Assembly (NCBI GenBank): GCA_041671125.1
Contig: JBAZCA010000001.1
Location: 200,120-264,119 of the forward strand
Source: Patescibacteria group bacterium
GTDB taxonomy: Bacteria > Patescibacteriota > Patescibacteriia > Patescibacteriales > JBAZCA01
Direction of reading: 5' to 3'
DNA length: 64,000 nucleotides
Shown: piece by piece, positions 1,664 to 61,043 of the stretch
Layout of the letters: every line of letters begins with the position of its first letter
Position numbering within the stretch: position 1 is the first letter of the stretch
The notes under the pieces: model-generated
What the model saw: the letters and a program-made list of their open reading frames with translations, nothing else
Told to the model about the DNA's origin: nothing
Databases searched by the model: none
Made by a program: the position numbers and the translations under genes

Positions 1664-1692
1664 AGATTTTAAACTGACTTTATTACACCGTC

Positions 1693-28406: not shown

Positions 28407-29900
28407 TCAATCTTCCAATTTCAGCCGCAAAACCAGGGCCGGTATTAAGAAAGATAACAATACGCCAAAATGGAGGCTCATCCAAAAATGGTCAAAGACC
28501 ATCATAACAGCCAGCGATGCCATAATTGCCGTGCCAAATACGGCCGCATTCTTGCCTTTACCTAAACATGTGTCATTCCCTTCCAATTCAACCGACCGCG
28601 AAGCAGGGACGAGCGCAAACAGGCTATAAAATACAGCCAGCAAAAACCCGATAAAAGCTGTTAATCCGAAGAGTCCAGTCTCAGCGAAGACAAGCAAAAA
28701 CGCATTGTGGACCGGCTGAAAATCCCAGGCATAAAGATTGACGATTGACCCGCCCGAAACGCTGCGCGTATCGCTGCGGGCGGGCGATTGACGATTGACG
28801 ATTTCTGATCTTTGACTCCTTAGTTGTGCCAGACTGTAATTCCCTATTCCAACACCAGTAAGCGGAGATGATTTTATAATCTCCCAAGCCTCTTTTGAAG
28901 AACTTATTCTTTCGGTAATTGATCGGTTTTCCAGCCTGCCCTCGCCCTTAATCCTGACGACAACAAGATCGTCGTAAAGGCCGAAAAAAGCGAAAAAAAC
29001 CAAACCAAGAATAAGAATTGTCTCAAGCATAGCTTTGCGGGCTAATAGATTTTTTCGGAGCAAAACGCCGGTAAAAATTATCACGTATCCGACCGTAAAT
29101 CCGAGCCAGGCGCTTCTTGAAAATGAAGCCAGCATGGCGATAAAACAAAGCGTTAAAACGGCAATGGATATGCGTTTTTCAATCCCTTGCTTCAACCGCC
29201 GACTAAGCAAGAAATAAAGGCAAAAAAGGCCTGCTCCGGCCATGGCCGCGCCTAAAATATTCGGGTGTGGCAGGGCTCCGTAAGCCCTGAGCCAGCGCTC
29301 AGGCAACTCTCCGGGATTAGAGACTTCAATGACTGATACGCCAAGCTCTTCCGCTTTATGCAAAGCCATGCCAAACCATTTTGAAGAAAAATCAGACTGG
29401 CTAAAAAACTGCCAGACAGCGATACCGGCCTGGACTGACAATCCAAGGCCGAGAAAGAAGAAAAGTTTCAGAATATTATAGTTTGAAAAGACGACTAAAA
29501 AAAACAGAAAAACACCCTCAAAAATCCAGCCGAGCCTATAGACCGCCAGTATCCTGTCCTCCGCCCCGATAACCGACAACGCGGAAACGACTATAAAAAG
29601 TAAGCCCAAAATCAGTGGGGAGTAAAACTTTAAATTTCTATTTGTAATTTTTAATTTTAAATTTTTAATTTTAAATTTTGCGAATAACAAAAAAGCTTGG
29701 ACGAGCAGTAGAAAAATAAACACAAAATCAATAGCGTATAACGAGATTGTTCCGTATTCAAAATATCCGCCAGCCAACTCTCCCGGAGTAATAATTAACC
29801 GGGTTTGAAATGAGACGAGGAGTGCCAGTAAATACAGGGCTAAACTCGAAAGCTTAGTCCATTTTAGACGAAAAATGTTTAATTCTGGCATAATAATCAA
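28407..29900 (-). CDS. O-antigen ligase / polymerase family (Wzy_C-like) polytopic membrane protein
   Basis: Many TM helices, with the motifs ..SFSRSAWLGFTVGYVI.. and ..HNAFLLVFAETGLFGL.. typical of the family. Confidence 0.7.
   Translation of the reverse strand: MIIMPELNIFRLKWTKLSSLALYLLALLVSFQTRLIITPGELAGGYFEYGTISLYAIDFVFIFLLLVQAFLLFAKFKIKNLKLKITNRNLKFYSPLILGLLFIVVSALSVIGAEDRILAVYRLGWIFEGVFLFFLVVFSNYNILKLFFFLGLGLSVQAGIAVWQFFSQSDFSSKWFGMALHKAEELGVSVIEVSNPGELPERWLRAYGALPHPNILGAAMAGAGLFCLYFLLSRRLKQGIEKRISIAVLTLCFIAMLASFSRSAWLGFTVGYVIIFTGVLLRKNLLARKAMLETILILGLVFFAFFGLYDDLVVVRIKGEGRLENRSITERISSSKEAWEIIKSSPLTGVGIGNYSLAQLRSQRSEIVNRQSPARSDTRSVSGGSIVNLYAWDFQPVHNAFLLVFAETGLFGLTAFIGFLLAVFYSLFALVPASRSVELEGNDTCLGKGKNAAVFGTAIMASLAVMMVFDHFWMSLHFGVLLSFLIPALVLRLKLED
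28736..28806. repeat. Composite element inside the CDS: heptamer direct repeats flanking a GC hairpin
   Basis: (GATTGAC)x2 - CCCGCCCG...CGGGCGGG - (GATTGAC)x2 GATTTCT. It encodes ..IVNRQSPARSDTRSVSGGSIVN.. Confidence 0.8.
29628..29682. repeat. AT-rich period-7 element in frame in the ligase-like gene (encodes KFKIKNLKLKITNRNLK)
   Basis: The coding-strand 50-mer AAAATTTAAAATTAAAAATTTAAAATTAAAAATTACAAATAGAAATTTAAA matches 46/50 with the element at 56104-56163. Confidence 0.85.
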
Positions 29901-30000: not shown

Positions 30001-31002
30001 TCATTTTTCCATCCCTGATAGAACTTGCCGGGTTCTTTTTTTCCATTCCGCGCGATACATTTTTCTCCGATCATTAACGTGAAGTTTGATAATGCCTTTA
30101 TCAACGAACACATCGGTCCCCTGGTTAAGTTTTTCTCTTATTGCCGGAGGAAATATCTTAAGCTGAAAATTCATTATCAGCGGTTCCAGCCATCCGGCCA
30201 GCGGCTCAATGACTTCCCCGGTCATAGCGGCTAAAATAGAGCGCTCAACCCTGACTTCCCCGGCCGGCGAAACGGGTTCGCAATTAGGCAGAATTTCCTT
30301 TAACCAGCCGTTGGCCTCGCATAGCTTCCGGAAAATATCCCCTCTTTCATAAAGAGGCGTGAATCCGGCGAGCCAATAATAAAAACAAATATCCTCCTGG
30401 CCGGACAAAAATTCCAGCCCCAGCCGGTCTTCGGAAATAAAAAAACTCAGACAAATCCTGTCCTTGGTTTTCCCTTTAGTCGGCCGAAGGCCGAGCATTG
30501 CCATCAGGCCGGCGCAAAAAAACCTTGTGATCCAAATTCTGTTTTTAGAGGTTACTATGATAAAATCAATATCGCTTTCTTTTTTAAAATTCCGCGATCC
30601 CATAACATTGCCCAAGGCGATCATTTTTATCCAGGGCAGGGCGGAGAAAAGCCTGATAATTTTTTTCGCCCGGCTGATTTTTCGGCCTGAACGGTTAAAG
30701 CGCCGAAGCCTTTCCGCAATAATACTTTCCCTTCCCTCTAAGAAATAGAAACCGTTCTTCCGGCCAAAAATGTTTTCACGCAATAGCTCTTCTAAAAGAG
30801 AATCAATATTCGTAATTCGTAATTCGTAATTCGTAATTTTATTGACAGTCGATGACCCGGCTAATCCGCAATCAACCTGAGGCAAATATAAATATCTGTG
30901 AACCTCAAAAAGAGTCAGGGGATAATCAAACAAGTCAAAAAAAGCAACCGTTTTTATGATTGCCTCCTTAATACCATTTTTTCCGTTCTTAACATCGCCC
31001 AT
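30001..31002 (-). CDS. Hypothetical protein with a Pol-beta-type nucleotidyltransferase-like motif
   Basis: ..GNVMGSRNFKKESDIDFIIV.. (G-S ... D-I-D). The N-terminus ..AFFDLFDYPLTLFEVHRYL.. was not recognised as a named family. Confidence 0.4.
   Translation of the reverse strand: MGDVKNGKNGIKEAIIKTVAFFDLFDYPLTLFEVHRYLYLPQVDCGLAGSSTVNKITNYELRITNIDSLLEELLRENIFGRKNGFYFLEGRESIIAERLRRFNRSGRKISRAKKIIRLFSALPWIKMIALGNVMGSRNFKKESDIDFIIVTSKNRIWITRFFCAGLMAMLGLRPTKGKTKDRICLSFFISEDRLGLEFLSGQEDICFYYWLAGFTPLYERGDIFRKLCEANGWLKEILPNCEPVSPAGEVRVERSILAAMTGEVIEPLAGWLEPLIMNFQLKIFPPAIREKLNQGTDVFVDKGIIKLHVNDRRKMYRAEWKKRTRQVLSGMEK
30811..30838. repeat. (CGTAATT)x4 heptanucleotide tract inside the CDS
   Basis: Four exact units at 30811, 30818, 30825 and 30832. 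They encode ..KITNYELRITN.. Confidence 0.95.
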
Positions 31003-32308: not shown

Positions 32309-35236
32309 ATGAAAAATTCCATTATCATCAAAGGTGCGCGGGTGCACAACCTGAAAAACGTTTCACTGGAAATTCCCCGCGACAAACTCATAGTCATCAC
32401 CGGACTTTCCGGCTCGGGAAAATCATCCCTGGCTTTTGACACGATTTACGCCGAAGGCCAGCGCCGCTACGTTGAATCGCTTTCGGCCTACGCCCGCCAA
32501 TTTATCGGCCTTATGGATAAGCCGGACGTTGACCTGATAGAAGGGCTTTCCCCGGCCATCTCTATTGACCAAAAGTCCACCTCTCATAATCCCCGTTCTA
32601 CGGTCGGCACGGTTACGGAAATTTACGATTACTTAAGGCTGCTTTTCGCCCGCGTCGGCGATCCGCATTGCCCGAAGTGCGGACGAAAAATCAGCACCTA
32701 CTCCATAGACGAAATTACCGGCAACATCCTGAAAAATTATTCCGGCCGGGATATATATGTATTGGCGCCGATTATTAAAGATAAAAAAGGCGAACATAAA
32801 AATATTCTCCCCAACCTGCGCAAAGCCGGTTTTAACCGGGTGCGTTTTGACGGGAATATTATGAGCCTGGAACAGGCCGAAGACCAAAACGTGGATAAAA
32901 ACAAAAGGCACGCGGTTGAAATTATTATTGATCGGCTTTCGGTTTCAGCGGATAAGGATGACCAGGCGAGATTATCCGAATCCGTGGAAAAAGCCCTGGA
33001 TCTCGCCAACGGATTGGTTACGATAGCCTGCCTGCCCCCTCCCCATGAGCGGAGTGATGGGGGGAGGGTTGGGGAGGGGGTTTTTGGGAAAAAAACCGGG
33101 GGTGAGGGTCAACCGGACAAAGTCGGCGAGCGCGTCTATTCCCGGCTTTTCGCCTGCCCGGATTGCGGTATAAGCCTCCCGGAAATTGAACCCCGCCTTT
33201 TTTCTTTTAACAATCCCTACGGCGCCTGCCCGGATTGCTCGGGACTCGGCACAAAACTGGAAGTGGATCCCGATCTGGTATTAAATCAAAACCTGACAAT
33301 AGCCCAGGGCGCCATCCGCCCCTGGTCGCACGGAACAACCGGATCCCAATCCTGGCTGTTGCGGATTCTTGGCACGGTAGCGGAAAAAAACGGCTTTGAC
33401 CTGAATACGCCGATTCATAAACTAAGTCCTAAACAGCTCCATATCGTCCTTTATGGCACCGGAGAAAAAAATTATAATGTTGACTACCAAAGCGATCGCT
33501 TTTCCGGCCAACTGACGACCGAATTTGAAGGCGTAATTCCCAATATTGAAAGGCGGTATAAGCAAACCGAATCGGATTTCATCAGAAAAGAAATTGAAGG
33601 CTTTATGCGAGTCCTTAACTGCCCGGCTTGTGAAGGAAAACGGCTAAAAAAAGAAGTTCTCTTTGTCCTTGTAGAAGGCCGTTCAATCCATGATATCGCC
33701 TCCTTATCCATTGAAGAGGCGTCCAAATTTTTTGAACAGCTGGAAAAAAGCAAAAACCAGAGCGCTAAAAACAAAAAAATCGCCAGCCAGGTAATAAAAG
33801 AAATTAAATCGCGGCTCCAATTCCTTTTGAATGTCGGCCTGAATTATCTTACCTTAAGCCGGGCGGCTAACACCCTTTCCGGCGGCGAAGCCCAGCGCAT
33901 CCGCCTCGCCACCCAAATCGGTTCAAAGCTGGTCGGCGTCCTTTACATTTTAGACGAACCGTCCATCGGCCTCCACCAACGGGATAACGCCAAGCTGATA
34001 AACACACTGAAAAACCTCCGGGACATCGGCAACACGGTCATTATCGTTGAGCATGATAGGGAAACGATTGAAACCGCCGATTTTATCGTTGACGTCGGCC
34101 CCGGCGCCGGCGAACACGGTGGCCGGATAGTGGCGTCCGGCACTTTTAACCAAATCCTTAAATCCGCTAACTCCATCACCGGCAATTATCTTTCAGGTAA
34201 AAAAACCATCCCAGCGCCGAAAAAATTTCGGACCGGATCGGGTCAAGCGTTAAAAATAATCGGCGCGGCCGAAAATAACCTAAAAAATATTGACGTGGAA
34301 ATTCCTTTGGGAAAATTCACGGCCATCACCGGCGTATCCGGCTCGGGAAAATCAACACTCTTGGATGATATCCTTTCCCGCGCCCTGGCCGCTAAATTTT
34401 ACCGGGCAAAGACCGCTCCCGGAAAACACGTCCGGATTGAAGGGACCGGCTTTATCAATAAGGTGATAAATATTGACCAGTCCCCTATCGGCCGGACGCC
34501 GCGCTCCAATCCGGCTACCTACACCGGCTGTTTTACCCCCATCCGCGAACTCTATGCTTCCCTGCCCGAAGCGAAAATCCGGGGCTATAAAGCCGGCCGC
34601 TTTTCCTTTAACGTTACCGGCGGACGGTGCGAAGCCTGCTCCGGCGACGGTCTGATTAAGATTGAAATGCAATTCCTGCCCGACGTTTACGTTGAATGCG
34701 AAGTCTGCCGCGGCACCCGGTACAATAAAGAAGCGCTGGAAATCCATTACAAGGAAAAAAATATTTCCGATGTCCTTAGAATGACGGTTGAAGAAGCTTC
34801 CGTATTCTTTAGAAATATTCCGAATGTAAACCAGAAACTCCAAACCCTGCTTGAAGTCGGCCTCGGCTATGTCCGGCTCGGCCAGTCGGCGACGACGCTT
34901 TCCGGCGGAGAAGCCCAGCGGGTAAAACTCTCAACCGAACTTTCCCGGCGCGATACCGGCCAGACGCTCTACATCCTTGACGAGCCGACTACCGGACTCC
35001 ATTTTGACGACATAAAAAGACTGCTCGGCGTCTTGCAAAAGCTGGTGGATAAAGGCAACACGGTTTTAATTATTGAGCACAACCTGGACGTAATCAAATC
35101 CGTTGACTGGATAATTGACCTCGGCCCCGAAGGCGGTGATAAGGGCGGGGAGATAATCGCCCAGGGCACGCCGCGCGACGTCGCCAAAGTAAAAAAGAGT
35201 TATACCGGACAATACCTAAAAAAATTACTAAATTAA
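32309..35236 (+). CDS. uvrA: Excinuclease ABC subunit A
   Basis: Two ABC ATPase modules ([12 protein letters not shown] and [11 protein letters not shown], each with LSGGEAQR), zinc modules CPxC and the conserved ..[20 protein letters not shown].. Confidence 0.97.
33035..33085. repeat. C5/G5 hairpin plus T5 element embedded in frame in uvrA
   Basis: CCCCCTCCCCA-tgagcggagtga-TGGGGGGAGGG-TTGGGGAGGGGG-TTTTT. It encodes ..[19 protein letters not shown].. Confidence 0.75.
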
Positions 35237-35293
35237 AAATTACGAATTATAAATTTAAAATTTTTAATTCGTAATTCGTAATTTTTAATTCTT
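35232..35293. terminator. AT-rich inverted-repeat / period-7 element between convergent uvrA and the phosphoesterase gene (possible bidirectional terminator)
   Basis: AAAAATTACGAATT ... AATTCGTAATTCGTAATTTTT, with AATTCGT units at 35266 and 35273. Confidence 0.45.
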
Positions 35294-41165: not shown

Positions 41166-41212
41166 ATTTATTTTATGCGTAACGTAATGCGTTATGCGTT
41201 ATGCGAAATAAT

Positions 41213-43089: not shown

Positions 43090-43139
43090 GCAAATCGTCA
43101 ATCGCAAATCGTCAATCGCAAATCGCAAATCGTAAATCC
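43090..43139. repeat. Period-7 tract (CAAATCG / TCAATCG units) abutting the tRNA 3-prime end
   Basis: caaatcgtcaatcgcaaatcgtcaatcgcaaatcgcaaatcgtaaatcc. Confidence 0.85.
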
Positions 43140-43143
43140 TATG

Positions 43144-44621: not shown

Positions 44622-45032
44622 CTACTTCCCCCGATCCATGGCCTCATTGGCTAATCGGTCGGCTTCCTTGTTTTTTTCCCTCGGAATATGCGTAAACTTA
44701 ACCTTTTTAAAACCTAAAGTCAAGTTATGGACTTTTAAAAATAACGGCGCGATTCCTTCGTTTTTTACCTTATACTCGCGCTTTAATTGTTTAACAACCA
44801 GCTCCGAGTCAAGATAAAAATCAAGCTCTTCCGGGTTAAAAACCCGGGCTTTTTCTAAGGCCGCGATAACCGCTTTATACTCGGCCTGATTATTAGTGGC
44901 CACGCCCAGGAATTCAGACACAATAAAAACTTCAGCGCCATCGGGATCGTAAGCAATCGCGCCAATCCCCGCCGGCCCCGGATTGCCCCGCGCCCCTCCG
45001 TCGGTGTAGATAGTTATTTTCGCGAAACTCAT
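44622..45032 (-). CDS. rnhA: Ribonuclease HI
   Basis: ..IYTDGGARGNPGPAGIG.., ..NNQAEYKAVIAALE.., ..DSELVVKQL.. and ..NKEADRLAN.. supply the DEDD catalytic residues. Confidence 0.9.
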   Translation of the reverse strand: MSFAKITIYTDGGARGNPGPAGIGAIAYDPDGAEVFIVSEFLGVATNNQAEYKAVIAALEKARVFNPEELDFYLDSELVVKQLKREYKVKNEGIAPLFLKVHNLTLGFKKVKFTHIPREKNKEADRLANEAMDRGK

Positions 45033-45105
45033 AACTCATAACTCATAACTCATAACTCAGCCCGTAACTTAAAAACGTTACGGGTTATGAGTTATGAGTT
45101 ACGAG
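45029..45105. repeat. 77-bp palindrome built from heptamer repeats, containing the rnhA start codon and the recJ stop codon
   Basis: (CTCATAA)x4 CTCAG CCCGTAAC ttaaaaac GTTACGGG (TTATGAG)x2 TTACGAG. The inner stem is 8 bp and the outer stem is about 21 bp with 1 mismatch. Confidence 0.9.
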
Positions 45106-46837
45106 ATTTTATATCTATAATCTTCAATTGCGCTTCCCGCCTCCCGTTATACTCATTAATCTCCGGATAATAAACCAGGTTAATTTTATCGCCAATCCTT
45201 AAATCTTTGCGTTCCGCCGCCTGGCCGAAACCGATGGCGTTAATCAGACCGGAATTTTCACTCTTTAACCTTAGTTTCAGATGCTGATTATCAGCGCCCA
45301 TTCTCATAATATCCATGACAGTAATACCTTTGGAAACGAACTTCGGCTTCTCATTCCCCGCCCCGAACGGCGCGAATTTTTCCAGCTCTTTTATAAACTC
45401 CTCGTTTATTTCAGAAAGGTCAATTTCCGCGTCAACTTTAATCTTCGGCCGGAGGTTTAGTTTTCCGAGCTCGCTTTCGGCGATTGCTTCCATCATTTTT
45501 TTAAAACCTTCAAGGTTTTCTTTTTTAAAAGAAAAACCGCAGGCCGCCGGATGACCGCCGTACTTGTCCAAATATTGTGAACAGCGCTCAACGGCATGGA
45601 TCAGATTAAATTCCTCTATACTCCGGCCCGAACCTTTCCATTCCCCTCCCTGTCCGACCGTGATTACGAGAGCCGGAAGATAATACCTTTCCGCGATCCG
45701 GCCGGCAATGAGGCCGACCACGCCTTCATTCCAGGCTTCCTTTTCAATTCCTTTATCCGCGACGGCGATAATAATCTTTTTACTGGCGCGATCCGAGTCG
45801 ACTTCCAGATCGGCGATGATTTCTTCGGTGATTTTCTCTGTAATCATCTGGCGCTCTATGTTCCTTCCGTTCAACGAACCGGCTAGAGCTTTGGCTTCTT
45901 TAGAATCGCGGGTAATAAGGAGCTCGTAAGCCGTGTTAGCGTGATCAAGCCGTCCGGCCGCGTTAAGCCTGGGCCCGAGCTGGAAGCCGATATTCCAGCT
46001 GTCAAGCGTCCGGCCGTTATTTATCTGCGAAATATTAATTAATTCTTTTAATCCAACGCGCCTGTTTTTATTTAAAACTTCCAGCCCTTTTTTTACGAGA
46101 ATCCTATTTTCGCCCCGCAAAATTACCATATCAGTAACCGTGCCGATAGCCACTAAATCCAAAATCCTTTCTTTTAATTTTTCCTTATCTTCCCCGCTGA
46201 GACTGGACGCGGCGATAACTGCCGACGCGAGCTTAAAAGCCGTTCCTACGCCGGCCAAAGATTTAAACGGATATTTTTCTTCCGGAAGATTGGCGTTGAT
46301 TATGAGGCAATCAGGCCAGGCTTTTTTTTCTTCCGGCGCCGAATGGTGGTCAGTAACAATCACATCCAGTCCGAGCTCTTTCGCGTACCGGACCTCGGCC
46401 GCGTTGCGGATTCCCGTATCCACGGTTATTACCAGTTTGACGCCGTTATTTTTCGCTTCTTCCAAAGCGCCCTTATTTAAGCCGTAACCTTCGGTCGTCC
46501 GGAACGGGATATAGACTCCTGTGTCGGCCTTTAAGGTGTTAAGTGTTTCGGTCATGACAGCGGAAGCCGTAACCCCGTCGGCATCGTAATCGCCGTAAAC
46601 GAGAATTTTATTTTTTTCCTTTATATGCCTGATGATAAGCGGAACGGCCGCCGCCATGTCGTTGAATTCAGCCGGGTCATGGAGTTTTTCGTAGCCGTCG
46701 TTTAAAAACTCCTCCATCTCTTCCCCGGAATTAAGCCCCCGGTTAAAAAGCAATTGTAAAATAACCCGATTATGTTCGGGGTATTTTTTTATTATTTCAT
46801 CACTAATTTCCGGCGCGATTTGCCACTTTTTTTTCAT
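45092..46837 (-). CDS. recJ: Single-stranded-DNA-specific exonuclease RecJ
   Basis: DHH motifs ..VYGDYDADGVTASAV.., ..ITVDTGI.. and ..VIVTDHH.., plus the DHHA1 motif ..GGHPAACGF.. Confidence 0.92.
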   Translation of the reverse strand: MKKKWQIAPEISDEIIKKYPEHNRVILQLLFNRGLNSGEEMEEFLNDGYEKLHDPAEFNDMAAAVPLIIRHIKEKNKILVYGDYDADGVTASAVMTETLNTLKADTGVYIPFRTTEGYGLNKGALEEAKNNGVKLVITVDTGIRNAAEVRYAKELGLDVIVTDHHSAPEEKKAWPDCLIINANLPEEKYPFKSLAGVGTAFKLASAVIAASSLSGEDKEKLKERILDLVAIGTVTDMVILRGENRILVKKGLEVLNKNRRVGLKELINISQINNGRTLDSWNIGFQLGPRLNAAGRLDHANTAYELLITRDSKEAKALAGSLNGRNIERQMITEKITEEIIADLEVDSDRASKKIIIAVADKGIEKEAWNEGVVGLIAGRIAERYYLPALVITVGQGGEWKGSGRSIEEFNLIHAVERCSQYLDKYGGHPAACGFSFKKENLEGFKKMMEAIAESELGKLNLRPKIKVDAEIDLSEINEEFIKELEKFAPFGAGNEKPKFVSKGITVMDIMRMGADNQHLKLRLKSENSGLINAIGFGQAAERKDLRIGDKINLVYYPEINEYNGRREAQLKIIDIKSRNS

Positions 46838-46971: not shown

Positions 46972-47089
46972 AAATAGAATTTTTAATTCTATAATTTTAT
47001 AATTTTTAAACCAATACCTTAATTATTAATGTTTAAAAATTCAAGCATTAAGAAATTATTTAAAAATTACAAAATTAAAAATTATAAAA

Positions 47090-48982
47090 TTACCTCTTTA
47101 GTATCTTTATAAAAGTATCGCTCGGTATTTCAACTCTCCCTTTGCCGTGCTCCATCATCTTCTTCTTTCCTTTCTTCTGCTTTTCTAAAAGCTTTCTCTT
47201 CCTCGTAACGTCCCCGCCGTAGAGCTTGGCGGTTACATCCTTGCGCATAGCGGAGAGCCTTTCGGAGGCGATTACTTTTCCGCCGATGGCCGCCTGAAGT
47301 TTTATCATGAACATCTGCCTCGGCAGGGTTTCTTTTAAAGTCTCCACCACTTCCTTGCCCCGCCGGAAAGCTTCGTCCCGGTAAACGATCATGGAAAGCG
47401 ATTCCACCTCGTCTTCGGCAACCAATATATCCATCTTAACGACATCGGCCGGACGATAGCCGGAAAACTCATAATTGACCGAAGCGTAACCCGAACTCAC
47501 GCTTTTTATCTTATCATAAAAATCGGTCAGGATCGTCGCCATGGGCGCCGTGTAATGAAGGATCGCCCGGGTAACATTGATGAATTCGGTATTTTTGTAA
47601 ATACCCCTTTTATCCTGAATTAAATTCATGGCCGCGCCCATGTATTCCTTGGGAATAATAACATCCAGAGTAACCCACGGCTCTTCAATTTTTTCAATTT
47701 GGGAAAAATCGGGTAATTCGTGCGGGCTATGGATTATGAGCGCCCCGTCGCTGTCAAGGTTTTTCAGGCGGCGCTGGTCCAGTGATTTAACTGATTTTAA
47801 AAAGACCCGGTAAGCGACGCTCGGGGTGGTAACGACGATATTGAGGTTATACTCGCGCTTGAGCCTTTCCTGAAAAATTTCAAGGTGCAAAAGCCCTAAA
47901 AATCCGCAGCGGAAACCAAACCCCAAAGCGTCCGAATGCTCAGGTTCATAAGTAAGAGCTGCGTCGTTTAATTTTAACTTTTCCATGGCTTCCCGCAACT
48001 GCTGGTACTCATTGCCTTCCTGGGGAAAAATTCCCGCGAACACCATGGGCTTTACTTCTTTATAGCCCTTTAAAGGCGCGACCGGAACATTCAATCCGAT
48101 CCCCCCCTGCGCCGCGGCATTAACATTAGTGATCGTATCGCCCACCCGGCATTCATTAACGTTCTTAAATCCGGTAGCGATGTAGCCAATCTCTCCGGCT
48201 TTTAATTCGCCGGTTGATTTATAGTCCGGAGTAAAAATTCCAACGTCCGTAGCCTCGCTTTTCGCCCTGGTCGCCATCAAATAAATCTTTTCACCCTTTT
48301 TTATTTTCCCCTCCATCACCCGGATAAAAGCGAGCACCCCCCGGTACTCGTCATAAGTTGAATCAAAAATTAACGCCCTAAGCGGTTTTTCATAGATAGA
48401 CCGGTCATTTCCTCCGCCGGCGCTTTTCGCGCTCGGTGCTGAAACATGATTAACCACCGCCTGCAGAATATCCGTGACACCCTCTCCGGTCTTTCCCGAC
48501 GCACTTATGATTTCCTCTTTTTTGCAACCGATTAATTCTATGATTTCATTTTTTGTTTTTTCCACGTCAGCGGCCGGCAAATCAATTTTATTCACCACCG
48601 GAATAATGGTAAGATTTTCTTCCAAAGCCAAATACAGGTTGGCGAGCGTTTGCGCCTGGATACCCTGAGTCGCGTCCACAAGCAAAATCGCCCCTTCTAC
48701 GGCCGCCAAAGAACGCGAGACTTCGTAAGTAAAATCAACGTGTCCGGGAGTGTCAATGAGGTTAAATAGATATTCTTCGCCGCCGCTGGATTTAAATTTC
48801 ATGGAGACCGGCTGAAGTTTAATAGTAATGCCCCGTTCGCGCTCAAGATCCATCCGATCCAAAACCTGATCCTTCATTTTCCTTTTTTCAATCGTTCCGG
48901 TAATCTCCAGCATCCGGTCGGCCAGGGTGCTTTTTCCGTGATCTATGTGGGCGATAATACAAAAATTCCTGATGTTTTTCAT
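47090..48982 (-). CDS. lepA: Translation elongation factor 4 (LepA)
   Basis: ..IRNFCIIAHIDHGKSTLADR.., ..DTPGHVDF.. and ..NKIDL.., with the LepA-specific C-terminus ..LYGGDVTRKRKLLEKQKKGKKKM.. Confidence 0.95.
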   Translation of the reverse strand: MKNIRNFCIIAHIDHGKSTLADRMLEITGTIEKRKMKDQVLDRMDLERERGITIKLQPVSMKFKSSGGEEYLFNLIDTPGHVDFTYEVSRSLAAVEGAILLVDATQGIQAQTLANLYLALEENLTIIPVVNKIDLPAADVEKTKNEIIELIGCKKEEIISASGKTGEGVTDILQAVVNHVSAPSAKSAGGGNDRSIYEKPLRALIFDSTYDEYRGVLAFIRVMEGKIKKGEKIYLMATRAKSEATDVGIFTPDYKSTGELKAGEIGYIATGFKNVNECRVGDTITNVNAAAQGGIGLNVPVAPLKGYKEVKPMVFAGIFPQEGNEYQQLREAMEKLKLNDAALTYEPEHSDALGFGFRCGFLGLLHLEIFQERLKREYNLNIVVTTPSVAYRVFLKSVKSLDQRRLKNLDSDGALIIHSPHELPDFSQIEKIEEPWVTLDVIIPKEYMGAAMNLIQDKRGIYKNTEFINVTRAILHYTAPMATILTDFYDKIKSVSSGYASVNYEFSGYRPADVVKMDILVAEDEVESLSMIVYRDEAFRRGKEVVETLKETLPRQMFMIKLQAAIGGKVIASERLSAMRKDVTAKLYGGDVTRKRKLLEKQKKGKKKMMEHGKGRVEIPSDTFIKILKR

Positions 48983-50987: not shown

Positions 50988-51090
50988 TTAATTTCCAATT
51001 TCCAATTTCTAATTTCTAATAACTTAAAAATTATAAATTTAGTCATTGAAAATTGTTTAAAAATTACAAAATTAAAAATTAAAAATTTTA
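50988..51090. repeat. Period-7 AT-rich tracts in the dapA-lysA divergent spacer
   Basis: (AATTTCC)x2 (AATTTCT)x2 at 50990-51017. The 26-mer TTTAAAAATTACAAAATTAAAAATTA at 51056-51081 is identical to 47059-47084. Confidence 0.85.
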
Positions 51091-53685: not shown

Positions 53686-53812
53686 AATTACCAATTATCA
53701 ATGATCAATTTTCAATGAATCAATTTTTTAATTTTCAAAACTGATTTTAAAAAACATTGGAAAATTTAAAATTGAAAATTCATTGGTCATTGAAAATTGG
53801 TAATTGATAATT
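53686..53812. repeat. AT-rich imperfect palindromic intergenic element (family member 1)
   Basis: It shares ATTACCAATTATCAAT (53687-53702) and AAATTCATTGGTCATTGAAAATTG (53776-53799) with 58641-58656 and 58728-58751. The arms are reverse complements at word level (TTTTCAATG/CATTGAAAA, CCAATTATCAAT/ATTGATAATTGG). Confidence 0.8.
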
Positions 53813-53815
53813 GAT

Positions 53816-55543
53816 TTAGATTCCTCTCGCCTCGCCCTTGTCTTCGGTTTCCAGCTTAGACCAGGGTAGGCGGCGCTTAAAAGAATTCCAAAAAGCGAAA
53901 AATTCTTCGCTTTGCAAAAGGCGGCAGAATAGAAGAAAAACCGCGATGCCGCCGAGTCCCGAGAAAAGTCCCTGGAACGCCACGCCGAGAAATGTATCCA
54001 TGTCTATAAACGGCCAGACCACGAGTTTTAACCCCTGGACGGACAGGCCGCAGGCAACGGAAGCGAGAATAATTTTCAACGTTGAAACCAATATCCTTTT
54101 CTCGTCCAACTTTCCGGTCTCCATTCTGAGATAAATCCAAAGCAGGATAAAGTTAATGGTACTGGAAATGGAAAAAGCCAAAGCCAGGCCGGCGACGCCC
54201 AAAGGAAGACAAGCGCTTACTCCGCCAAAAGGGCTGAACATTACTCTGCACGACATAATTTTAGGAAGCCAAAGGCAGAGCCCGGTATTCATGGCCACGG
54301 AAAACAAGCCGATGTAAAAAGGCGTCCGGCTGTCGTGCCGGGCGTAAAAAACCCGAACCAGAAGCGGCATGAGCGCCTGCGCTAGAAGGCCGATAGTAAA
54401 AAAAGCTAGGGTATCAATAGTCATAATCGTATCCTCCCAGTCAAAATGGCCGGAACCAAGGATTACCCGGACAATCTGCGCCCGCAAAGTGAGGAGCAGG
54501 ACGGCGGAAGGAATAATAAAAAAAATAATTTGTCTGGCGGCTAAAGAAAAACTTTCCACTAATTTTTCACGATGAAAAGCCTCCCGCGCCAGCGTCGGAA
54601 AAACCGCGACGGCGTAAGAAATCCCGAAAATTCCAACCGGAAACGATTGTAAATTATTAGCAAGATTAAATACCGTGAGCGAACCGCTCTTCAGGGTTGA
54701 GGCGATGATAGTTAAAACTACGAGGTTAATCTGGGTTATGGCGAGCGACATGGTCCGCGGCCCCATCATCCGCATAATTTTCCGCAAATTCTTTTCTTTC
54801 CAGTCAAGTATAAAACGATAGCGAAAACCGAGGCTCCGGACCGAAGGCCATTGGACGAGCATGTGAAGTAGCGCGCCGAGCGTTACGCCCCAAGCCAGGC
54901 CGTGGACGCCGAAAAAAGGTGTTAAAAACAAAGCGCCTAAAATTATCCCGACGTTGTAAAAAACCGGCGCTAAAGAATAAATAAAAAAACGCCTAAACGA
55001 CTGGAGGATGCCGCCGAGTACTGAAGAGACCCCTAAAAATATCGGCGATAAAAACATGATTCGCGTAAGGCTCACGGTAAGCGCTAACTTCTCCCCGCTG
55101 AATCCCGGAGTGATGAGGCGGGTTAAAAACGGCGCGGCAATTATTCCAATAGCGGACAATATAATCAGGCTTACGGCCAGTAAATTTAAAATGTTGCTGG
55201 CGAGCAACCAGGCTTCGGCGTTTCCGTCTTTTTTCTCATTGCCGTTCTGTTTTTTTTCCAAAAATTTTTCGCGTCTTTCGTCTTTCTTTCCGTGTTTTAG
55301 CAAGGAGGTAAAAACCGGGATAAATCCGGCTGACAGAGCGCCTAAAACCAACAAGTTAAAAATTAAATCCGGCACGCGAAAAGCGGCATAATAAATATCC
55401 AAAGTATCGCCGGCGCCGAACTCGCTCGCGAGAATCCTATCCCTGAATATCCCCAAAAGCCGGCTGACTAACGAAAAAAAAGCCACCATGGCGGCCGCCA
55501 GGGTGATGCTGTTAATTTCCCCGTTTAGAATTTTTTTAATCAT
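53816..55543 (-). CDS. murJ: Lipid II flippase MurJ
   Basis: ..SRLLGIFRDRILASEFGAGDTLDIYYAAFRVPDLIFNLLVLGALSAGFIPVF.. The start ATG at 55543 overlaps the upstream stop as ATGA. Confidence 0.9.
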   Translation of the reverse strand: MIKKILNGEINSITLAAAMVAFFSLVSRLLGIFRDRILASEFGAGDTLDIYYAAFRVPDLIFNLLVLGALSAGFIPVFTSLLKHGKKDERREKFLEKKQNGNEKKDGNAEAWLLASNILNLLAVSLIILSAIGIIAAPFLTRLITPGFSGEKLALTVSLTRIMFLSPIFLGVSSVLGGILQSFRRFFIYSLAPVFYNVGIILGALFLTPFFGVHGLAWGVTLGALLHMLVQWPSVRSLGFRYRFILDWKEKNLRKIMRMMGPRTMSLAITQINLVVLTIIASTLKSGSLTVFNLANNLQSFPVGIFGISYAVAVFPTLAREAFHREKLVESFSLAARQIIFFIIPSAVLLLTLRAQIVRVILGSGHFDWEDTIMTIDTLAFFTIGLLAQALMPLLVRVFYARHDSRTPFYIGLFSVAMNTGLCLWLPKIMSCRVMFSPFGGVSACLPLGVAGLALAFSISSTINFILLWIYLRMETGKLDEKRILVSTLKIILASVACGLSVQGLKLVVWPFIDMDTFLGVAFQGLFSGLGGIAVFLLFCRLLQSEEFFAFWNSFKRRLPWSKLETEDKGEARGI

Positions 55544-56715
55544 AACAAATCTTTGATAATTTCCTTTGTCTTTGCGGCAATAGAGTCCCAATCGTAGTTA
55601 TTTTGAACCAATCTTTTTCCGTTTTCAATTATTTTCTTCCTCAGATAAAAATCATCTAAAAGAAGAATTATTTTTTCCTTTATTGACGCCGGGTTGCTCG
55701 CCTCGCAAAAAACCCCTGTTTCATTATCTTTTAAAAAATCCGGAATCCCGCCGACTGGCGTGGCGATAACCGGAATCCCGGCCGCCATGGCTTCTAAAAA
55801 AACATTTCCCAACCCCTCGCTAAGGGACGGGCGGATAAAAACATCGCTTATCCAAAGATATCGCGGCACTTCATTATGCGGAACGCTTCCCAGGAACAAA
55901 ATTCTTTCTTTCAGGTTTAGTTCTTCCGAAAGCTCTTTAAGCCGGCCTTCCAATTCTCCACCGCCAATAACCAATAATTTACATTTAGGCTCGGGTTTTT
56001 CCTTCAGAAGTAACTCCATCGCTCTTATCAAATCCTCAATCCCGTTCTTTTTCACCAATCTGGAAACGGTAATCACAACTCTTTCACTCTCCCCTATTCC
56101 TAATTTAGATTTTAAATTTTGATTTGTAATTTTTAATTTTGAATTTTTAATTTTGAATTTTCTTATGTCTACCCCGTTCGGCACGATCGCTATCTCGCAT
56201 CTCGCCCCGGACGAAACCGCGCGTTTTTTTAAGCTCGCGCTAATGGCGGTAATATAGTCGGCCTTTTTTATCGCCAGCCTGTGGATTGGCTGTACAAAAA
56301 TTTTGAACAGGGCCTCATTATCCAGCGCGTAGCGCTTAAGATGCTCTTCCTCATCTCCCTCCTGCATGTTAAGCAGGAGTTTTTTTTCCGGAAAAAACAT
56401 TTTAAAAAAAGAAGCTGCTAAGCTTCCCTGGCTGGCCATAATTGACCAGGCTACGGAATAATTATTTTTTCGGTTAAGGCTTAAAGCTTTAAAGAACCCG
56501 AAAAAAGGAAGCAAAAACTTATCCAGTTTAGTTCCAAAGCCAACGCGAAAAACATTTACCCGGCCAATCTTTTCCTGTCGGGGCAAAACCCTGTCCAGCC
56601 TGGCGGTAATCAAATCAAATTCAATATCCTTAATCCTGCCGGTAATCTCCTTAACCGCGATTTCCGCTCCGCCAATAAGCGGCAGGTAAGCCGTGGAAAA
56701 AATCAAAACTTTCAT
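55540..56715 (-). CDS. Glycosyltransferase family 4
   Basis: ..GGAEI.., ..VSRLVKKNGI.., ..LVIGGGELE.. and ..RPSLSEGLGNVFLEAMAAGIPVIAT.. (EX7E). Confidence 0.85.
   Translation of the reverse strand: MKVLIFSTAYLPLIGGAEIAVKEITGRIKDIEFDLITARLDRVLPRQEKIGRVNVFRVGFGTKLDKFLLPFFGFFKALSLNRKNNYSVAWSIMASQGSLAASFFKMFFPEKKLLLNMQEGDEEEHLKRYALDNEALFKIFVQPIHRLAIKKADYITAISASLKKRAVSSGARCEIAIVPNGVDIRKFKIKNSKLKITNQNLKSKLGIGESERVVITVSRLVKKNGIEDLIRAMELLLKEKPEPKCKLLVIGGGELEGRLKELSEELNLKERILFLGSVPHNEVPRYLWISDVFIRPSLSEGLGNVFLEAMAAGIPVIATPVGGIPDFLKDNETGVFCEASNPASIKEKIILLLDDFYLRKKIIENGKRLVQNNYDWDSIAAKTKEIIKDLL
56104..56163. repeat. AT-rich period-7 element in frame in the GT4 gene (encodes KFKIKNSKLKITNQNLK)
   Basis: The coding-strand 50-mer AAAATTCAAAATTAAAAATTCAAAATTAAAAATTACAAATCAAAATTTAAA matches 46/50 with 29628-29682. 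Confidence 0.85.
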
Positions 56716-58635: not shown

Positions 58636-58762
58636 TTTCAATTACCAATTATCAATTTACAATAAATTTTCAATGTTTTAATTTTTCAATTTTTAAACAT
58701 TTGAAAATTGAAGAATTGTTTAATTGGAAATTCATTGGTCATTGAAAATTGATAATTGATCA
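58636..58762. repeat. AT-rich imperfect palindromic intergenic element (family member 2)
   Basis: See 53686-53812. The 16-mer and the 24-mer are shared exactly. Confidence 0.8.
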
Positions 58763-58789
58763 TTTTTTAGAATAAGCTTGCAATTTCTC

Positions 58790-59786: not shown

Positions 59787-61043
59787 ATGCGAAAAAAAAT
59801 CCTCTACCTCATCACCCAATCCGAAACAGGCGGCGCCCAGCGCTATGTTTTTGATTTGGCCAAAAACCTAAAAGAAGAGTATGACATAAGTGTCGCTTTT
59901 GGCCCGCTTCGCTGGAGCTATGGCGAAGCGGGCCAGCAAAGCGAGGCGAGGAAGCCGGGTAAAACCAGCGAACTGGCAAAAACCTTAAAAAATGAAAATA
60001 TTCCCTATTATATTATCCCCCATCTTAAAAGGGACATTTCACCTTTCAATGATGTAGCCGCGATTTCTGAAATTGTTGCGTTGCTAAAAACAATTCAACC
60101 GGAAATATTACACCTAAACAGCTCAAAAATCTCCATCCTCGGCTCCTTGGCGGGCTTATTTATAAAATTAAAAATTAAAAATTGTAAATTAAAAATTGTA
60201 TATACCGCCCACGGCTGGGTCTTTAACGAACCCATGTCATTTCTAAAAAAACTCTTTTATAAATGGACGGAAAAAATTACCGCGCGTTTTAAGGATAAAA
60301 TTATCTGCGTTTCCGAATTTGACCGGCAAGCCGCCTTAAAAGAAAAAATCGCCCCGCCCGAAAAATTAATCACAATCCATAATGGCATTGGACCGATCAA
60401 CTTTTTATCGCGGGAACAAGCGCGGAAAGAAATTGAATTTAGAATTAAGAATTTAGAATTAAGAGCGCAGAATAAAATTATTATCGGTTCTGTCGGTAAT
60501 TTATATAAAACCAAGGGCTATGAATATCTCATTGAGGCCGCCAAAATCCTAAAAGAAAAATTCTTAATTCCCCGTCTCGCCCTCGGCGAGCCGAGGCGGG
60601 TTAATTCTAAATTTTTAATTTTTATAATTGGCGAGGGTAAAGAAAGAAAAAAACTGGAAGCGCTAATTAAAAAAAACAATCTTGAAGATATGGTTATTCT
60701 GGCTGGCCGGATTCCGGACGCCGCGAGACTGCTCAAAGCTTTTGATATTTATGTTTGTTCCTCAGTCAAGGAAGGTTTATCCTACACTTTAATTGAAGCT
60801 CTGCGAGCCGGACTGCCGATCGTTGCCACTAATGCCGGCGGCAATCCTGAAATTATCGCGGGCGCCGCGGACGGAGCGCTTATTCCGGTCAAAGACGCGA
60901 AAACGCTCGCCAGCCAAATTGAAAAATTCATCAAAGACAAAATCCCGGCCCGGGAACTTTCATCTCTCAGACAAAAAAACCCCCAGGAATTCACACTTGA
61001 TAAAATGATAAAAAAGACAAAAGAAATTTACAATAGTCTATGA
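59787..61043 (+). CDS. Glycosyltransferase family 4 with three AT-rich repeat-encoded insertions
   Basis: ..GGAQRY.., ..SVGNLYKTKGY.., ..IIGEGKERKKLE.. and ..SSVKEGLSYTLIEALRAGLPIVAT.. Confidence 0.85.
   Translation: MRKKILYLITQSETGGAQRYVFDLAKNLKEEYDISVAFGPLRWSYGEAGQQSEARKPGKTSELAKTLKNENIPYYIIPHLKRDISPFNDVAAISEIVALLKTIQPEILHLNSSKISILGSLAGLFIKLKIKNCKLKIVYTAHGWVFNEPMSFLKKLFYKWTEKITARFKDKIICVSEFDRQAALKEKIAPPEKLITIHNGIGPINFLSREQARKEIEFRIKNLELRAQNKIIIGSVGNLYKTKGYEYLIEAAKILKEKFLIPRLALGEPRRVNSKFLIFIIGEGKERKKLEALIKKNNLEDMVILAGRIPDAARLLKAFDIYVCSSVKEGLSYTLIEALRAGLPIVATNAGGNPEIIAGAADGALIPVKDAKTLASQIEKFIKDKIPARELSSLRQKNPQEFTLDKMIKKTKEIYNSL
60163..60200. repeat. Period-7 AT tract in frame (encodes KLKIKNCKLKIV)
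   Basis: aaaattaaaaattaaaaattgtaaattaaaaattgta belongs to the same word family as 29628-29682 and 56104-56163. Confidence 0.8.
60434..60463. repeat. (AATTTAG AATTAAG)x2 period-7 tract in frame (encodes EFRIKNLELR)
   Basis: It is related to the AATTCTT tract at 12335-12365 in the giant gene, which encodes ELRIKNYELR. Confidence 0.8.
60581..60628. repeat. GC hairpin plus period-7 AT tract in frame (encodes ..LGEPRRVNSKFLIFII..)
   Basis: CCTCGGC-GA-GCCGAGG is followed by ttaattc taaattt ttaattt ttataat. Confidence 0.7.

What the first reader, a model, noticed from the sequence alone, without database searches (positions are those of the whole stretch)
29628..29682. The same roughly 50-nt AT-rich element (46/50 identical) is read in the same frame in two unrelated genes
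The coding-strand sequence at 29628-29682 (O-antigen-ligase-like gene) and at 56104-56163 (GT4 glycosyltransferase) differ at 4 of 50 positions. They encode KFKIKNLKLKITNRNLK and KFKIKNSKLKITNQNLK. A third relative at 60163-60200, in a different GT4 on the plus strand, encodes KLKIKNCKLKIV in the same relative frame. Related 26-mers occur in spacers and are identical at 47059-47084 and 51056-51081.

Nucleotide-level identity between unrelated genes implies recent copying. It could be a mobile mini-insertion or recombination between repeats. The consistent frame suggests either selection on the encoded basic amphipathic peptide or a frame-constrained insertion mechanism.
Basis: seen in the sequence. 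Interest (0 to 1): 0.6.

Follow-up and report, generated by a model that had tools for sequence, protein, structure and literature searches.

The report
Seven-base repeat arrays inside genes
The shared 50-base "element" is a run of 7-base tandem repeats of a kind that litters this Patescibacteria genome (and many other bacteria); it survives in tolerant protein loops only in the one reading frame that has no stop codon, so it is a fairly ordinary repeat, not a frame-aware mobile insert.

Summary
29629-29679 (Wzy/O-antigen-ligase gene) and 56111-56161 (GT4 gene) are 47/51 identical and encode the quoted peptides.

Both are imperfect heptanucleotide tandem arrays, (AAAATTW)n. They are two of 28 period-7 arrays in the window. 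These arrays cover 13.8% of spacer bases against 0.7% of coding bases.

The shared frame is forced: it is the only stop-free sense frame. All four within-array differences fall in the two codons where a pure array would read TAA, or at the 14-nt paralogue of one of them.

Orthologues carry different heptamer arrays at the same loops: (AATTTTC)n plus a GC hairpin, (GAAATTW)6, (AGATTTC)6. These loops are array hot spots, not conserved peptides.

The core 23-mer occurs in at least 116 loci across many phyla. An unrelated Firmicute array matches as well as the two copies match each other, so near-identity does not prove recent copying. Copying between arrays remains plausible.

I found no terminal repeats, target duplications, transposase or length polymorphism.

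Verdict: a new member of a known kind (heptanucleotide simple-sequence repeats), of moderate interest.

The parts
29629..29679 (-). Array A: (AAAATTT/AAAATTA)n heptanucleotide array, 7.3 units, translated as KFKIKNLKLKITNRNLK. It lies in the loop between the second and third hydrophobic segments of the Wzy_C protein.
   Evidence: TRF; alignment and six-frame translation; only stop-free sense frame; orthologue alignment A2
56111..56161 (-). Array B: (AAAATTC/AAAATTA)n array (TRF 56104/56110-56161), 47/51 identical to A, translated as KFKIKNSKLKITNQNLK. It lies in the inter-domain linker after the NGVD motif of GT4a.
   Evidence: orthologue alignment A1; codon alignment; AF2 model, residues 185-202, pLDDT 67-83
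60164..60197 (+). Array C: (AAAATTA)n array with TGT at the stop-critical codon, translated IKLKIKNCKLKI. It lies in an N-domain loop of GT4b. Relatives L002 and L004 carry a (CATTACGCGTTCCA)2 array at the same site.
60435..60464 (+). (GAATTTA/GAATTAA)n array in GT4b, translated EFRIKNLELR. It is an 8-codon insertion relative to L002 and L004.
60601..60624 (+). Array of the same family read on its T-rich strand (VNSKFLIFI) in GT4b.
28785..28803 (-). (AATCGTC)2.7 array in a second variable loop of the Wzy_C gene (EIVNRQS). Relative L129 has (GAAATYA)n there (EIRNQKLEIR).
30808..30838 (-). Perfect (ACGAATT)4.4 array inside the hypothetical ORF 30001-31002 (KITNYELRITN). All three sense frames are open.
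28407..29900 (-). Host gene 1: Wzy_C / O-antigen-ligase family ORF. The likely start is the ATG at 29891. PGAP calls only 400 aa, starting after the array.
   Evidence: Pfam; homologues cover the N-terminus; start discrepancy
55540..56715 (-). Host gene 2: GT4 glycosyltransferase (GT4a).
59787..61043 (+). Host gene 3: GT4 glycosyltransferase (GT4b), carrying three arrays.
46978..47091 (.). Spacer element of the same AAAATTN family, with inverted arms 46978-47010 and 47059-47091. It contains the 26-mer 47059-47084.
   Evidence: (I25)
50990..51087 (.). Spacer arrays (AATTTCC)4.4 and (TTAAAAA)4.3 between dapA and lysA. They contain the identical 26-mer 51056-51081. Relatives have other heptamer arrays at this spacer.
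35220..35291 (.). Palindromic pair of heptamer arrays between the convergent genes uvrA and 35318-35893. Arms are 90% complementary.
   Evidence: I24; z -6.3
45025..45108 (.). (AACTCAT)n / (ATGAGTT)n inverted arrays around a GC core, forming a hairpin of -42 kcal/mol.
   Evidence: I18; z -8.2
53686..53820 (.). Composite ~135-nt hairpin element built of AATTNNC / GNNAATT arrays. It is copy 1 of a dispersed pair.
58640..58771 (.). Copy 2 of the composite element (111/127 identities to copy 1). It is absent from the orthologous 6-13-nt spacers of L002 and L004.
43090..43138 (-). (GATTTGC/GATTGAC)7 array directly 3' of tRNA-Pro (43143-43214), followed by an intrinsic-terminator-like hairpin.

Best explanation
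The 'element' is an imperfect heptanucleotide simple-sequence-repeat array, (AAAATTW)n with a 14-nt super-unit. It belongs to a genome-wide population of 7-nt-period arrays in this Patescibacteria genome.

How the arrays behave:
- They arise and turn over mainly in spacers. There they are often paired as inverted arms or flank GC hairpins.
- They persist in coding DNA only where the protein tolerates extra residues: the GT-B inter-domain linker, a Wzy loop between membrane segments, and loops of GT4b and of the giant proteins.
- They persist only in a frame without stop codons.

Why the frame and peptide coincide:
- Seven is coprime to three, so a pure AAAATTA array puts TAA in every frame within 21 nt.
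- A translated copy must therefore carry escape substitutions. Its frame and its Lys/Ile/Asn/Leu peptide then follow automatically from the DNA.

Why A and B are so alike:
- Both sit close to the same default array sequence, which recurs in many phyla.
- They differ exactly at the stop-critical codons.

Shown: the arrays and their statistics; the forced frame; different arrays at the same sites in orthologues; cross-phylum recurrence of the core sequence; and the placement of the A/B differences.

Inferred:
- Growth and homogenisation by replication slippage or template switching.
- Some templated copying between arrays within a genome.
- The peptide being a tolerated by-product.
For: Arrays and their distribution:
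- TRF finds period 7/14 in all three copies.
- Periods 7 and 14 dominate all periods from 2 to 15.
- There are 28 period-7 arrays with many different units. They cover 448/3251 spacer bases against 413/59239 coding bases, and 10 of 17 spacers of at least 40 nt have one.

Frame:
- In every AT-rich coding array the frame used is the only stop-free sense frame.
- A pure (AAAATTA)n in the register of A and B has in-frame TAA at two codons. The four within-array A/B differences are TTA/TCA and AGA/CAA at those two codons, plus TTT/TTC at the 14-nt paralogue. Copy C uses TGT at the first critical codon.

Orthologues:
- At the GT4a linker: L002 (84% aa, flanks 19/19 codons identical) has (AATTTTC)n plus the hairpin CCTGCCTACCGGACAGGCAGG. 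L123 has (GAAATTW)6 and L124 has (AGATTTC)5.9.
- The Wzy loop is equally variable.

Cross-phylum recurrence:
- The exact pattern ATTNAAAATTAAAAATTACAAAT is in at least 116 loci of Bacteroidota, Cyanobacteria, Planctomycetota, Patescibacteria, Firmicutes and others.
- The best unrelated hit matches the A/B flanks 25/30, the same as A against B.
- Of those 116 copies, 15 lie in long ORFs. All are on the A-rich strand and in the two stop-free frames.

Other:
- The array peptide maps to the lower-confidence inter-domain linker of an otherwise confident GT-B model.
- Literature: heptameric SSRs are the over-represented class in many bacteria and are concentrated in spacers (PMC4679880 and PMC4692102, both citing Mrazek 2007).
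Against: - A and B share two deviations from the pure array that stop avoidance does not require (ACA, and AAT in the tail). This hints at common descent rather than pure convergence.
- In close relatives the same two genes again share an array type. (AATTTTC) arms of 14 + 21 nt are identical in L002 GT4a and L129 Wzy. If these come from one lineage, this points to copying between the two loci.
- Other genomes show many different units side by side, so there is no simple single 'default'.
- No direct evidence of slippage was found. Five arrays show no indel between 99%-identical contigs, and there is no 7-aa length variation within 90% protein clusters.
- Why the unit length is 7, and why an AATT core is present in 70% of units against 10-18% expected, is not explained.
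Confidence: 0.68

Rival explanations
1. A recent templated copy between the two loci, or from a common donor array, by ectopic gene conversion or template switching between dispersed arrays. On this view the arrays in Wzy and GT4a co-evolve as a pair.
For: - 47/51 identity, including two shared deviations that are not required for stop avoidance.
- A and B are each other's best match inside the window.
- In relatives L002 (GT4a) and L129 (Wzy), the same two sites again share identical array arms around different GC hairpins.
- A 23-nt array-plus-hairpin string is identical between a window spacer (57677) and the L129 coding loop.
- The two ~135-nt spacer elements are 111/127 identical and absent from relatives.
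Against: - A copy of an already translated array would carry the same stop-escape substitutions. A and B differ at both critical codons.
- Equally good matches exist in unrelated phyla.
- L129 and L002 cannot be shown to be one genome.
- Other genomes hold many different units at different sites.
Confidence: 0.3
2. A discrete selfish mini-element, like a Rickettsia palindromic element or a MITE, that inserts in frame into unrelated genes.
For: - Lineage-specific presence in loops of unrelated genes.
- Composite array-plus-hairpin modules occur both in spacers and, translated, in coding loops of relatives.
- A 15-aa hairpin-encoded segment is present or absent among proteins at least 90% identical (P0140 vs P0265).
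Against: - A and B have no inverted termini, no secondary structure (z +0.75 to +1.2) and no target-site duplication.
- Their ends are not constant.
- The orthologous sites already hold other arrays.
- No transposase or Y1/RAYT gene is in the window.
Confidence: 0.1
3. Phase-variation switches. Gain or loss of one 7-nt unit would frameshift envelope-glycan genes on and off, as in neuO-type contingency loci.
For: - Heptanucleotide arrays sit in a Wzy gene and two GT4 genes.
- Some arrays are perfect: (ACGAATT)4.4 at 30808-30838 and (AGATTTC)5.9 in L124.
- Arrays at the same site stay repeat-like across distant orthologues, which implies ongoing unit turnover.
Against: - A, B and C are imperfect (77-85% matches).
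- There are no indels in five arrays between 99%-identical contigs.
- No frameshifted or 7-aa-variant alleles appear in clusters.
- Most arrays are in spacers next to housekeeping genes.
Confidence: 0.08
4. The basic amphipathic peptide (KxKIKNxKLKI) is itself selected, for example for membrane or nucleotide-sugar interaction, and the DNA similarity follows from that.
For: - Orthologues of GT4a often show [KR]F.I.[ND][LF] heptads in the linker.
- The Wzy loop is Lys-rich.
- Part of the linker is predicted helical.
Against: - The same DNA is common in non-coding spacers (101 of 116 copies are non-coding).
- Close relatives replace the peptide with unrelated sequence (FLPTGQAGNFQFSI in L002; FRQRRIRLGRT in L129).
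- The peptide is just the translation of the default array in its only open frame.
Confidence: 0.05

Closest known systems
Long simple sequence repeats with heptanucleotide units in prokaryotes (Mrazek, Guo & Shah 2007, as summarised in PMC4679880 and PMC4692102)
   Same: Head-to-tail 7-nt units, dispersed over the genome, far more frequent than other unit lengths, and strongly enriched in spacers. Polymerase slippage is the proposed origin.
   Different: - The host is a Patescibacteria MAG, for which I found no description in the paper library.
- The units are AT-rich with an AATT core.
- Many arrays are paired as hairpin arms.
- Several are translated inside conserved enzymes.
Cyanobacterial STRR heptamers (Calothrix PCC 7601; mentioned in PMC4692102) and GGGNATC repeats of Xanthomonas and Nostoc (PMC4692102)
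   Same: Families of tandem heptamers, typically about 4 units, lying near gene ends in spacers.
   Different: - The named units (CCCCAGT, TTGGTCA, CAACAGT, GGGAATC) are absent as tandems from the window.
- There is no G-quadruplex potential.
- The STRR unit sequences are quoted from my own knowledge.
TAACTGA direct repeats of Beggiatoaceae, Cyanobacteria and Bacteroidetes (MacGregor 2015, PMC4679880)
   Same: - A heptamer array family spread over distant phyla.
- Mostly intergenic and close to gene ends.
- One orientation has stops in all frames; the other is occasionally translated at protein peripheries as a 7-aa repeat.
   Different: - The unit is different (no TAACTGA tandems).
- Here many different units coexist.
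- No preference for lying upstream of start codons was seen.
neuO poly-psi heptanucleotide VNTR (AAGACTC)n of E. coli K1 (own knowledge; listed as PMC13001214)
   Same: A 7-nt tandem repeat translated inside a surface-polysaccharide-modifying gene, where three units equal one 7-aa repeat.
   Different: neuO has perfect repeats with documented copy-number switching. Here the arrays are imperfect and no length variation was found.
Rickettsia palindromic elements (Ogata et al. 2000; own knowledge) and REP/MITE-type elements
   Same: Short repeated DNA found in frame in unrelated genes, tolerated in surface loops. Relatives' arrays include GC hairpins that are translated.
   Different: A, B and C are not palindromic and have no fixed ends or target duplications. 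No mobilising gene was seen.

Membership tests
Heptanucleotide simple sequence repeat (LSSR) | Head-to-tail tandem copies of a 5-11 nt unit, longer than expected by chance | tested here: met
   TRF gives period 7 with 7.3, 7.4 and 4.9 copies. Periods 7 and 14 are hugely enriched over other periods. The motif has 34 matches against 0.34 expected.
Heptanucleotide simple sequence repeat (LSSR) | Over-representation in non-coding DNA | tested here: met
   Arrays cover 13.8% of spacer bases against 0.70% of coding bases.
Heptanucleotide simple sequence repeat (LSSR) | Copy-number change by slippage (length polymorphism) | tested here: inconclusive
   There are no indels in 5 arrays between 99%-identical contigs and none within 90% clusters. 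However, unit turnover at conserved sites and concerted T/C variants within A and B imply dynamics over longer times.
Named heptamer families (STRR1-3, TAACTGA, GGGAATC, neuO AAGACTC) | The specific unit sequence | tested here: not met
   No tandem of 2 or more units with at most 1 mismatch for any of them in the window.
Rickettsia-palindromic-element-like / MITE | Palindromic structure or terminal inverted repeats | tested here: not met
   A and B fold no better than shuffles (z +1.17 and +0.75). No inverted termini are present.
Rickettsia-palindromic-element-like / MITE | Target-site duplication and constant element ends | tested here: not met
   The flanks of A, B and C share nothing beyond the repeat itself. 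Array lengths differ.
Rickettsia-palindromic-element-like / MITE | In-frame presence in unrelated genes at loops | tested here: met
   Wzy loop, GT4a linker and GT4b loop.
Phase-variable contingency locus | Perfect or near-perfect repeat tract in or just upstream of the ORF | tested here: not met
   A, B and C show 77-85% matches. Only 30808-30838, in a hypothetical ORF, is perfect.
Phase-variable contingency locus | Population heterogeneity in unit number, giving on and off frames | not testable with these tools
   No reads are available. The window's proteins are singleton clusters from two MAG records. The flank-anchored metagenome scan found only the L002-type allele.
Diversity-generating retroelement target | A nearby reverse transcriptase and a template repeat with A-specific differences | tested here: not met
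   The only RT-like hit is an RNase H/RVT_3 ORF. The A/B differences are T/C, AG/CA.

The most novel reading that the evidence does not exclude
AATT-cored heptamer arrays, with or without GC hairpins, would form a copy-prone, RPE-like repeat system in Patescibacteria. The system would colonise both spacers and a fixed set of permissive protein loops. Arrays in unrelated envelope genes (the Wzy loop and the GT4 linker) would be kept alike within each genome by inter-array conversion, and might act as coordinated frameshift switches for the cell surface. The recurrence of the same ~31-nt array in many phyla would then reflect a shared, still unknown generating mechanism rather than drift.
Probability: 0.15. 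Interest if true: 0.65.

Novelty: new member of a known kind. Interest (0 to 1): 0.38.

Why it matters
It removes a tempting false lead. The same frame and the same peptide in unrelated genes can be a trivial consequence of stop codons in an AT-rich 7-nt repeat.

It also documents several further points:
- Ultra-small Patescibacteria genomes, despite being 93% coding here, are peppered with heptanucleotide arrays.
- The same protein loops host such arrays across the phylum, with complete turnover of the unit sequence.
- Annotation pipelines can mis-start genes at the arrays. PGAP truncates the Wzy gene by 94 residues.

If arrays in different genes really exchange sequence or slip, they would be a source of rapid surface-glycan variation in organisms that cannot yet be cultured.

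Tried and rejected
- **Chance.** Rejected by shuffles.
- **Allele search.** A flank-anchored scan of the metagenome collection for alternative GT4a linker alleles found only one contig, an L002-type allele, and so gave no polymorphism data.
- **Length variation in clusters.** I looked for 7-aa length variants inside 90% protein clusters of 10 orthologues. None occurred at array sites. The only variant was a 15-aa GC-hairpin-encoded segment. The window's own proteins are singleton clusters.
- **L001.** It proved to be the same contig as the window (100% identity), so it is uninformative.
- **Frameshift allele.** The truncated Wzy protein P0278 is not a frameshift. Its contig simply changes to unrelated sequence exactly at the array start, by chimera or rearrangement.
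- **Leader or UTR role.** Cross-phylum copies lie within 40 nt of gene starts or stops in all four orientations (25, 32, 34 and 18 cases), with no preference.
- **Known RNA families.** Only tRNA-Pro was found.
- **Transposase or RAYT in the window.** None.
- **Named heptamer families.** Absent.
- **Literature.** Searches for heptanucleotide or SSR repeats in Patescibacteria/CPR returned nothing relevant.
- **Genome-wide single unit type.** Rejected, because L123 and L124 carry many different units.
Full report
**1. Observation**

Read on the coding (minus) strand, 29629-29679 and 56111-56161 align without gaps at 47 of 51 positions.
- The first lies in ORF 28407-29900, a Wzy_C / O-antigen-ligase family protein (Pfam E 4.5e-17).
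- The second lies in ORF 55540-56715, a GT4 glycosyltransferase (E 6.5e-47).
- A shorter relative at 60164-60197 lies in a second GT4, ORF 59787-61043.

A degenerate 20-mer of the motif occurs 34 times in the window against 0.34 expected from shuffles.

**2. What the sequence is**

Tandem Repeats Finder reports every copy as a period-7 array. The three arrays have 7.3, 7.4 and 4.9 units at 77-85% matches, with a 14-nt super-unit.

They are not special within the window.
- There are 28 period-7 arrays with many different units, including ACGAATT, GATAATT, GCAAATC, AACTCAT, AATTTTC and GGAAATT.
- Periods 7 and 14 dwarf every other period from 2 to 15.
- Arrays cover 13.8% of spacer bases but 0.70% of coding bases. 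Ten of 17 spacers of at least 40 nt carry at least one.
- 70% of units contain an AATT core, against 10-18% expected for AT-rich heptamers.

In spacers the arrays are often arranged as inverted arms that fold into long hairpins. Examples are 35231-35290, 45025-45108, 46978-47091, 53686-53820 and 58640-58771, with z scores from -3.8 to -8.2. The coding arrays A and B are unstructured.

The genome is a Patescibacteria MAG (source names; contigs).

**3. Why the frame is the same**

In each AT-rich coding array, the frame in use is the only stop-free frame on the sense strand.

A pure (AAAATTA)n array, in the register and frame of A and B, would contain in-frame TAA at two codons. The four within-array differences between A and B fall as follows:
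- TTA versus TCA at the first critical codon.
- AGA versus CAA at the second critical codon.
- TTT versus TTC at the position 14 nt upstream of the first, which is its paralogue in the super-unit.

Copy C has TGT at the first critical codon. A, B and C are therefore the same idealised array with three different stop-escape solutions.

The rule generalises. The exact 23-mer shared by A and B was retrieved in 116 copies from other organisms. Of these, 101 are non-coding. The 15 inside long ORFs are all on the A-rich strand and use only the two stop-free frames, giving LKIKNYK or [L/S]KLKITN. Neither peptide selection nor a frame-aware insertion mechanism is needed.

**4. Orthologues: hot spots, not conserved peptides**

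For GT4a, 26 orthologues from Patescibacteria align well on both sides of the array. They are hypervariable in the linker after the NGVD motif, with heptad-like peptides such as KFEIRNLKFEIRNL, RFQISDFRFKISDF and ELRITNYELR. The DNA confirms arrays at that site.
- L123 has (GAAATTW)6 and L124 has (AGATTTC)5.9.
- In the close relative L002 (84% aa), the 19 codons before the array are identical to the window. The linker, however, is (AATTTTC)2 - CCTGCCTACCGGACAGGCAGG - (AATTTTC)2.6.

GT4b carries (AAAATTA)n in the window, where L002 and L004 carry (CATTACGCGTTCCA)2. GT4b also has an extra 8-codon (GAATTWA)n insertion.

The Wzy loop between the second and third hydrophobic segments is equally variable.
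- The close relative L129 has (AATTTTC)2, then two GC hairpins, then (AATTTTC)2.6(AATTTCW)n.
- L128 has no array there.

An AlphaFold model of GT4a has mean pLDDT 89. It places residues 185-202 in the inter-domain linker, at pLDDT 67-83.

The segments are therefore translated, tolerated, lineage-specific fillings of permissive loops. The sites recur across the phylum, but the sequences do not.

**5. Does the identity mean recent copying?**

These come from Bacteroidota, Cyanobacteria, Planctomycetota, Patescibacteria, Firmicutes, Ignavibacteria, Verrucomicrobia and others, often several per genome. My rough expectation for such a 22-base AT-rich word in the 596-Gb collection is about ten or fewer. 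This is an estimate of my own, not a tool result.

Outside the 23-mer, the best unrelated copy (Alkaliphilus, L051) matches A or B at 25 of 30 flank positions, exactly as well as A matches B. Four more hits reach 22-24. Arrays of this vocabulary can therefore be near-identical without direct descent.

Some evidence points the other way.
- A and B share two deviations from the pure array that stop avoidance does not require.
- In the relatives, L002 GT4a and L129 Wzy again share identical array arms (14 + 21 nt) around different hairpins.
- A 23-nt array-plus-hairpin string is identical between window spacer 57677 and the L129 coding loop.
- The two ~135-nt spacer elements are 111/127 identical and missing from the orthologous spacers of relatives.

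I conclude that templated copying between arrays probably happens in this lineage. I also conclude that the A/B identity alone does not demonstrate it. A and B were not copied from one another as finished coding segments, because they differ at both stop-critical codons. One scenario that fits is patchy conversion from the many non-coding arrays, with selection rejecting tracts that bring in TAA. This scenario is inference.

**6. Dynamics**

No length change was seen at any of five arrays between two contigs that are 99.1% identical over 10 kb (L122 and L002). None was seen at array sites within 90% protein clusters. The arrays are therefore not hypermutable on that scale.

They are nonetheless completely replaced between relatives at 84-93% identity. 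They also remain repeat-like at the same site across orthologues that are only 58% identical. This requires continuing homogenisation over longer times.

The window's own population could not be examined. L001 is the same contig, the window's proteins are singleton clusters, and the metagenome scan did not contain this allele.

**7. Comparison with known systems**

Heptameric simple sequence repeats are the over-represented SSR class in many bacteria. They are concentrated in spacers, and polymerase slippage has been proposed as the cause (Mrazek 2007, as summarised in PMC4679880 and PMC4692102). Described families include:
- cyanobacterial STRRs;
- GGGNATC repeats of Xanthomonas and Nostoc (PMC4692102);
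- TAACTGA repeats of Beggiatoaceae, Cyanobacteria and Bacteroidetes. One orientation of these has stops in all frames, and the other is occasionally translated at protein peripheries (PMC4679880).

None of the named units occurs in the window. I found no description of such repeats for Patescibacteria.

The neuO heptanucleotide VNTR and Rickettsia palindromic elements are functional analogues of the two more exciting readings, phase switch and in-frame selfish element. Both comparisons rest on my own knowledge. Their defining features (perfect polymorphic tracts; palindromy and fixed ends) were tested and not met, or could not be tested.

**8. Verdict**

The finding is a real repeat, correctly seen. 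It belongs to a known kind, the heptanucleotide SSR arrays, and is a new member in a new host. The frame coincidence is explained by stop codons.

Several features are worth a note, though not a high score:
- conserved array sites in enzyme loops with full unit turnover;
- stop-escape substitutions as the only differences between copies;
- translated GC hairpins in relatives;
- recurrence of one ~31-nt array across phyla.

I rate interest at 0.38.

Noticed in passing
L002:10570-10590; L129:2233-2262; proteins P0140 vs P0265: GC-rich hairpins (CCTGCCTACCGGACAGGCAGG; TCCGCCAAAGGCGGA; TCCGCCTCGGGCGGA) sit inside heptamer arrays within coding loops of relatives and are translated (LPTGQAG, FRQRRIRLGRT). 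A 15-aa segment of this kind (PAYRQAG...) is present or absent among Wzy proteins at least 90% identical. The hairpin TCCGCCAAAGGCGGA, with its left arm, also occurs in the window spacer at 57677.
   Followed up: partly
Genome-contig loci L006-L121: The exact 23-mer ATTNAAAATTAAAAATTACAAAT is found in at least 116 loci of many phyla. It is usually part of a stereotyped ~31-nt AATTAAAAATTAAAAATTACAAATTAAAAATT. Several copies occur per genome in some Bacteroidales, Paludibacteraceae and Planctomycetota MAGs. The reason for this recurrence is unexplained.
   Followed up: partly
window 28407-29900: Gene-start discrepancy. NCBI/PGAP annotates the Wzy protein as 400 aa, starting just after the AT-rich array. 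JGI/ENA aa through it. Orthologues support the long form.
   Followed up: yes
window 43090-43214: tRNA-Pro(CGG) at 43143-43214 (-) is followed directly by a (GATTTGC/GATTGAC)7 array and then an intrinsic-terminator-like hairpin (GGCTCCGCACTGCGGAGC + TTTT).
   Followed up: partly
window 28244-28339: A perfect 42-nt tandem repeat (2.3 copies, 100% identical; 42 = 6 x 7) lies in the spacer between the 5651-aa ORF and the Wzy gene.
   Followed up: no
window 2177-11116 and 11133-28088: Two adjacent giant ORFs (2979 and 5651 aa) on the minus strand have internal 147-150-nt tandem modules (14959-16477, 20657-21002). They carry three heptamer arrays of their own (10746, 12243, 12334).
   Followed up: no
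window 40593-41165: An ORF with a Translin-family domain (E 3.2e-22). To my knowledge this family is mostly eukaryotic and archaeal and binds single-stranded repeat DNA/RNA, which makes it curious in a genome full of short repeats.
   Followed up: no
window 1-2000 (ORF 782-1663): A low-GC segment (34% against about 47-50% elsewhere) carries a SMODS nucleotidyltransferase-domain ORF (E 5.4e-12). It may be a defence-island fragment.
   Followed up: no
L125:414-450 vs L126:3277: A 1.66-kb contig is 100% identical to the Falkowbacteria Wzy gene from the first base of its heptamer array onward and unrelated upstream. The breakpoint (assembly chimera or rearrangement) lies exactly at the array.
   Followed up: partly
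window 55705-56717 vs L002: GT4a is 93% identical in DNA to L002, while the neighbouring genes are 83-87% identical and GT4b is 73%. Divergence along this glycan locus is uneven (possibly recombination), even though the GT4a linker array is completely replaced.
   Followed up: no
window 59767-59805, 41181-41219, 45074-45112: A small family of (GTTATGC/GTTATGA)-type arrays. One of them overlaps the start codon of GT4b (ATG at 59787).
   Followed up: no
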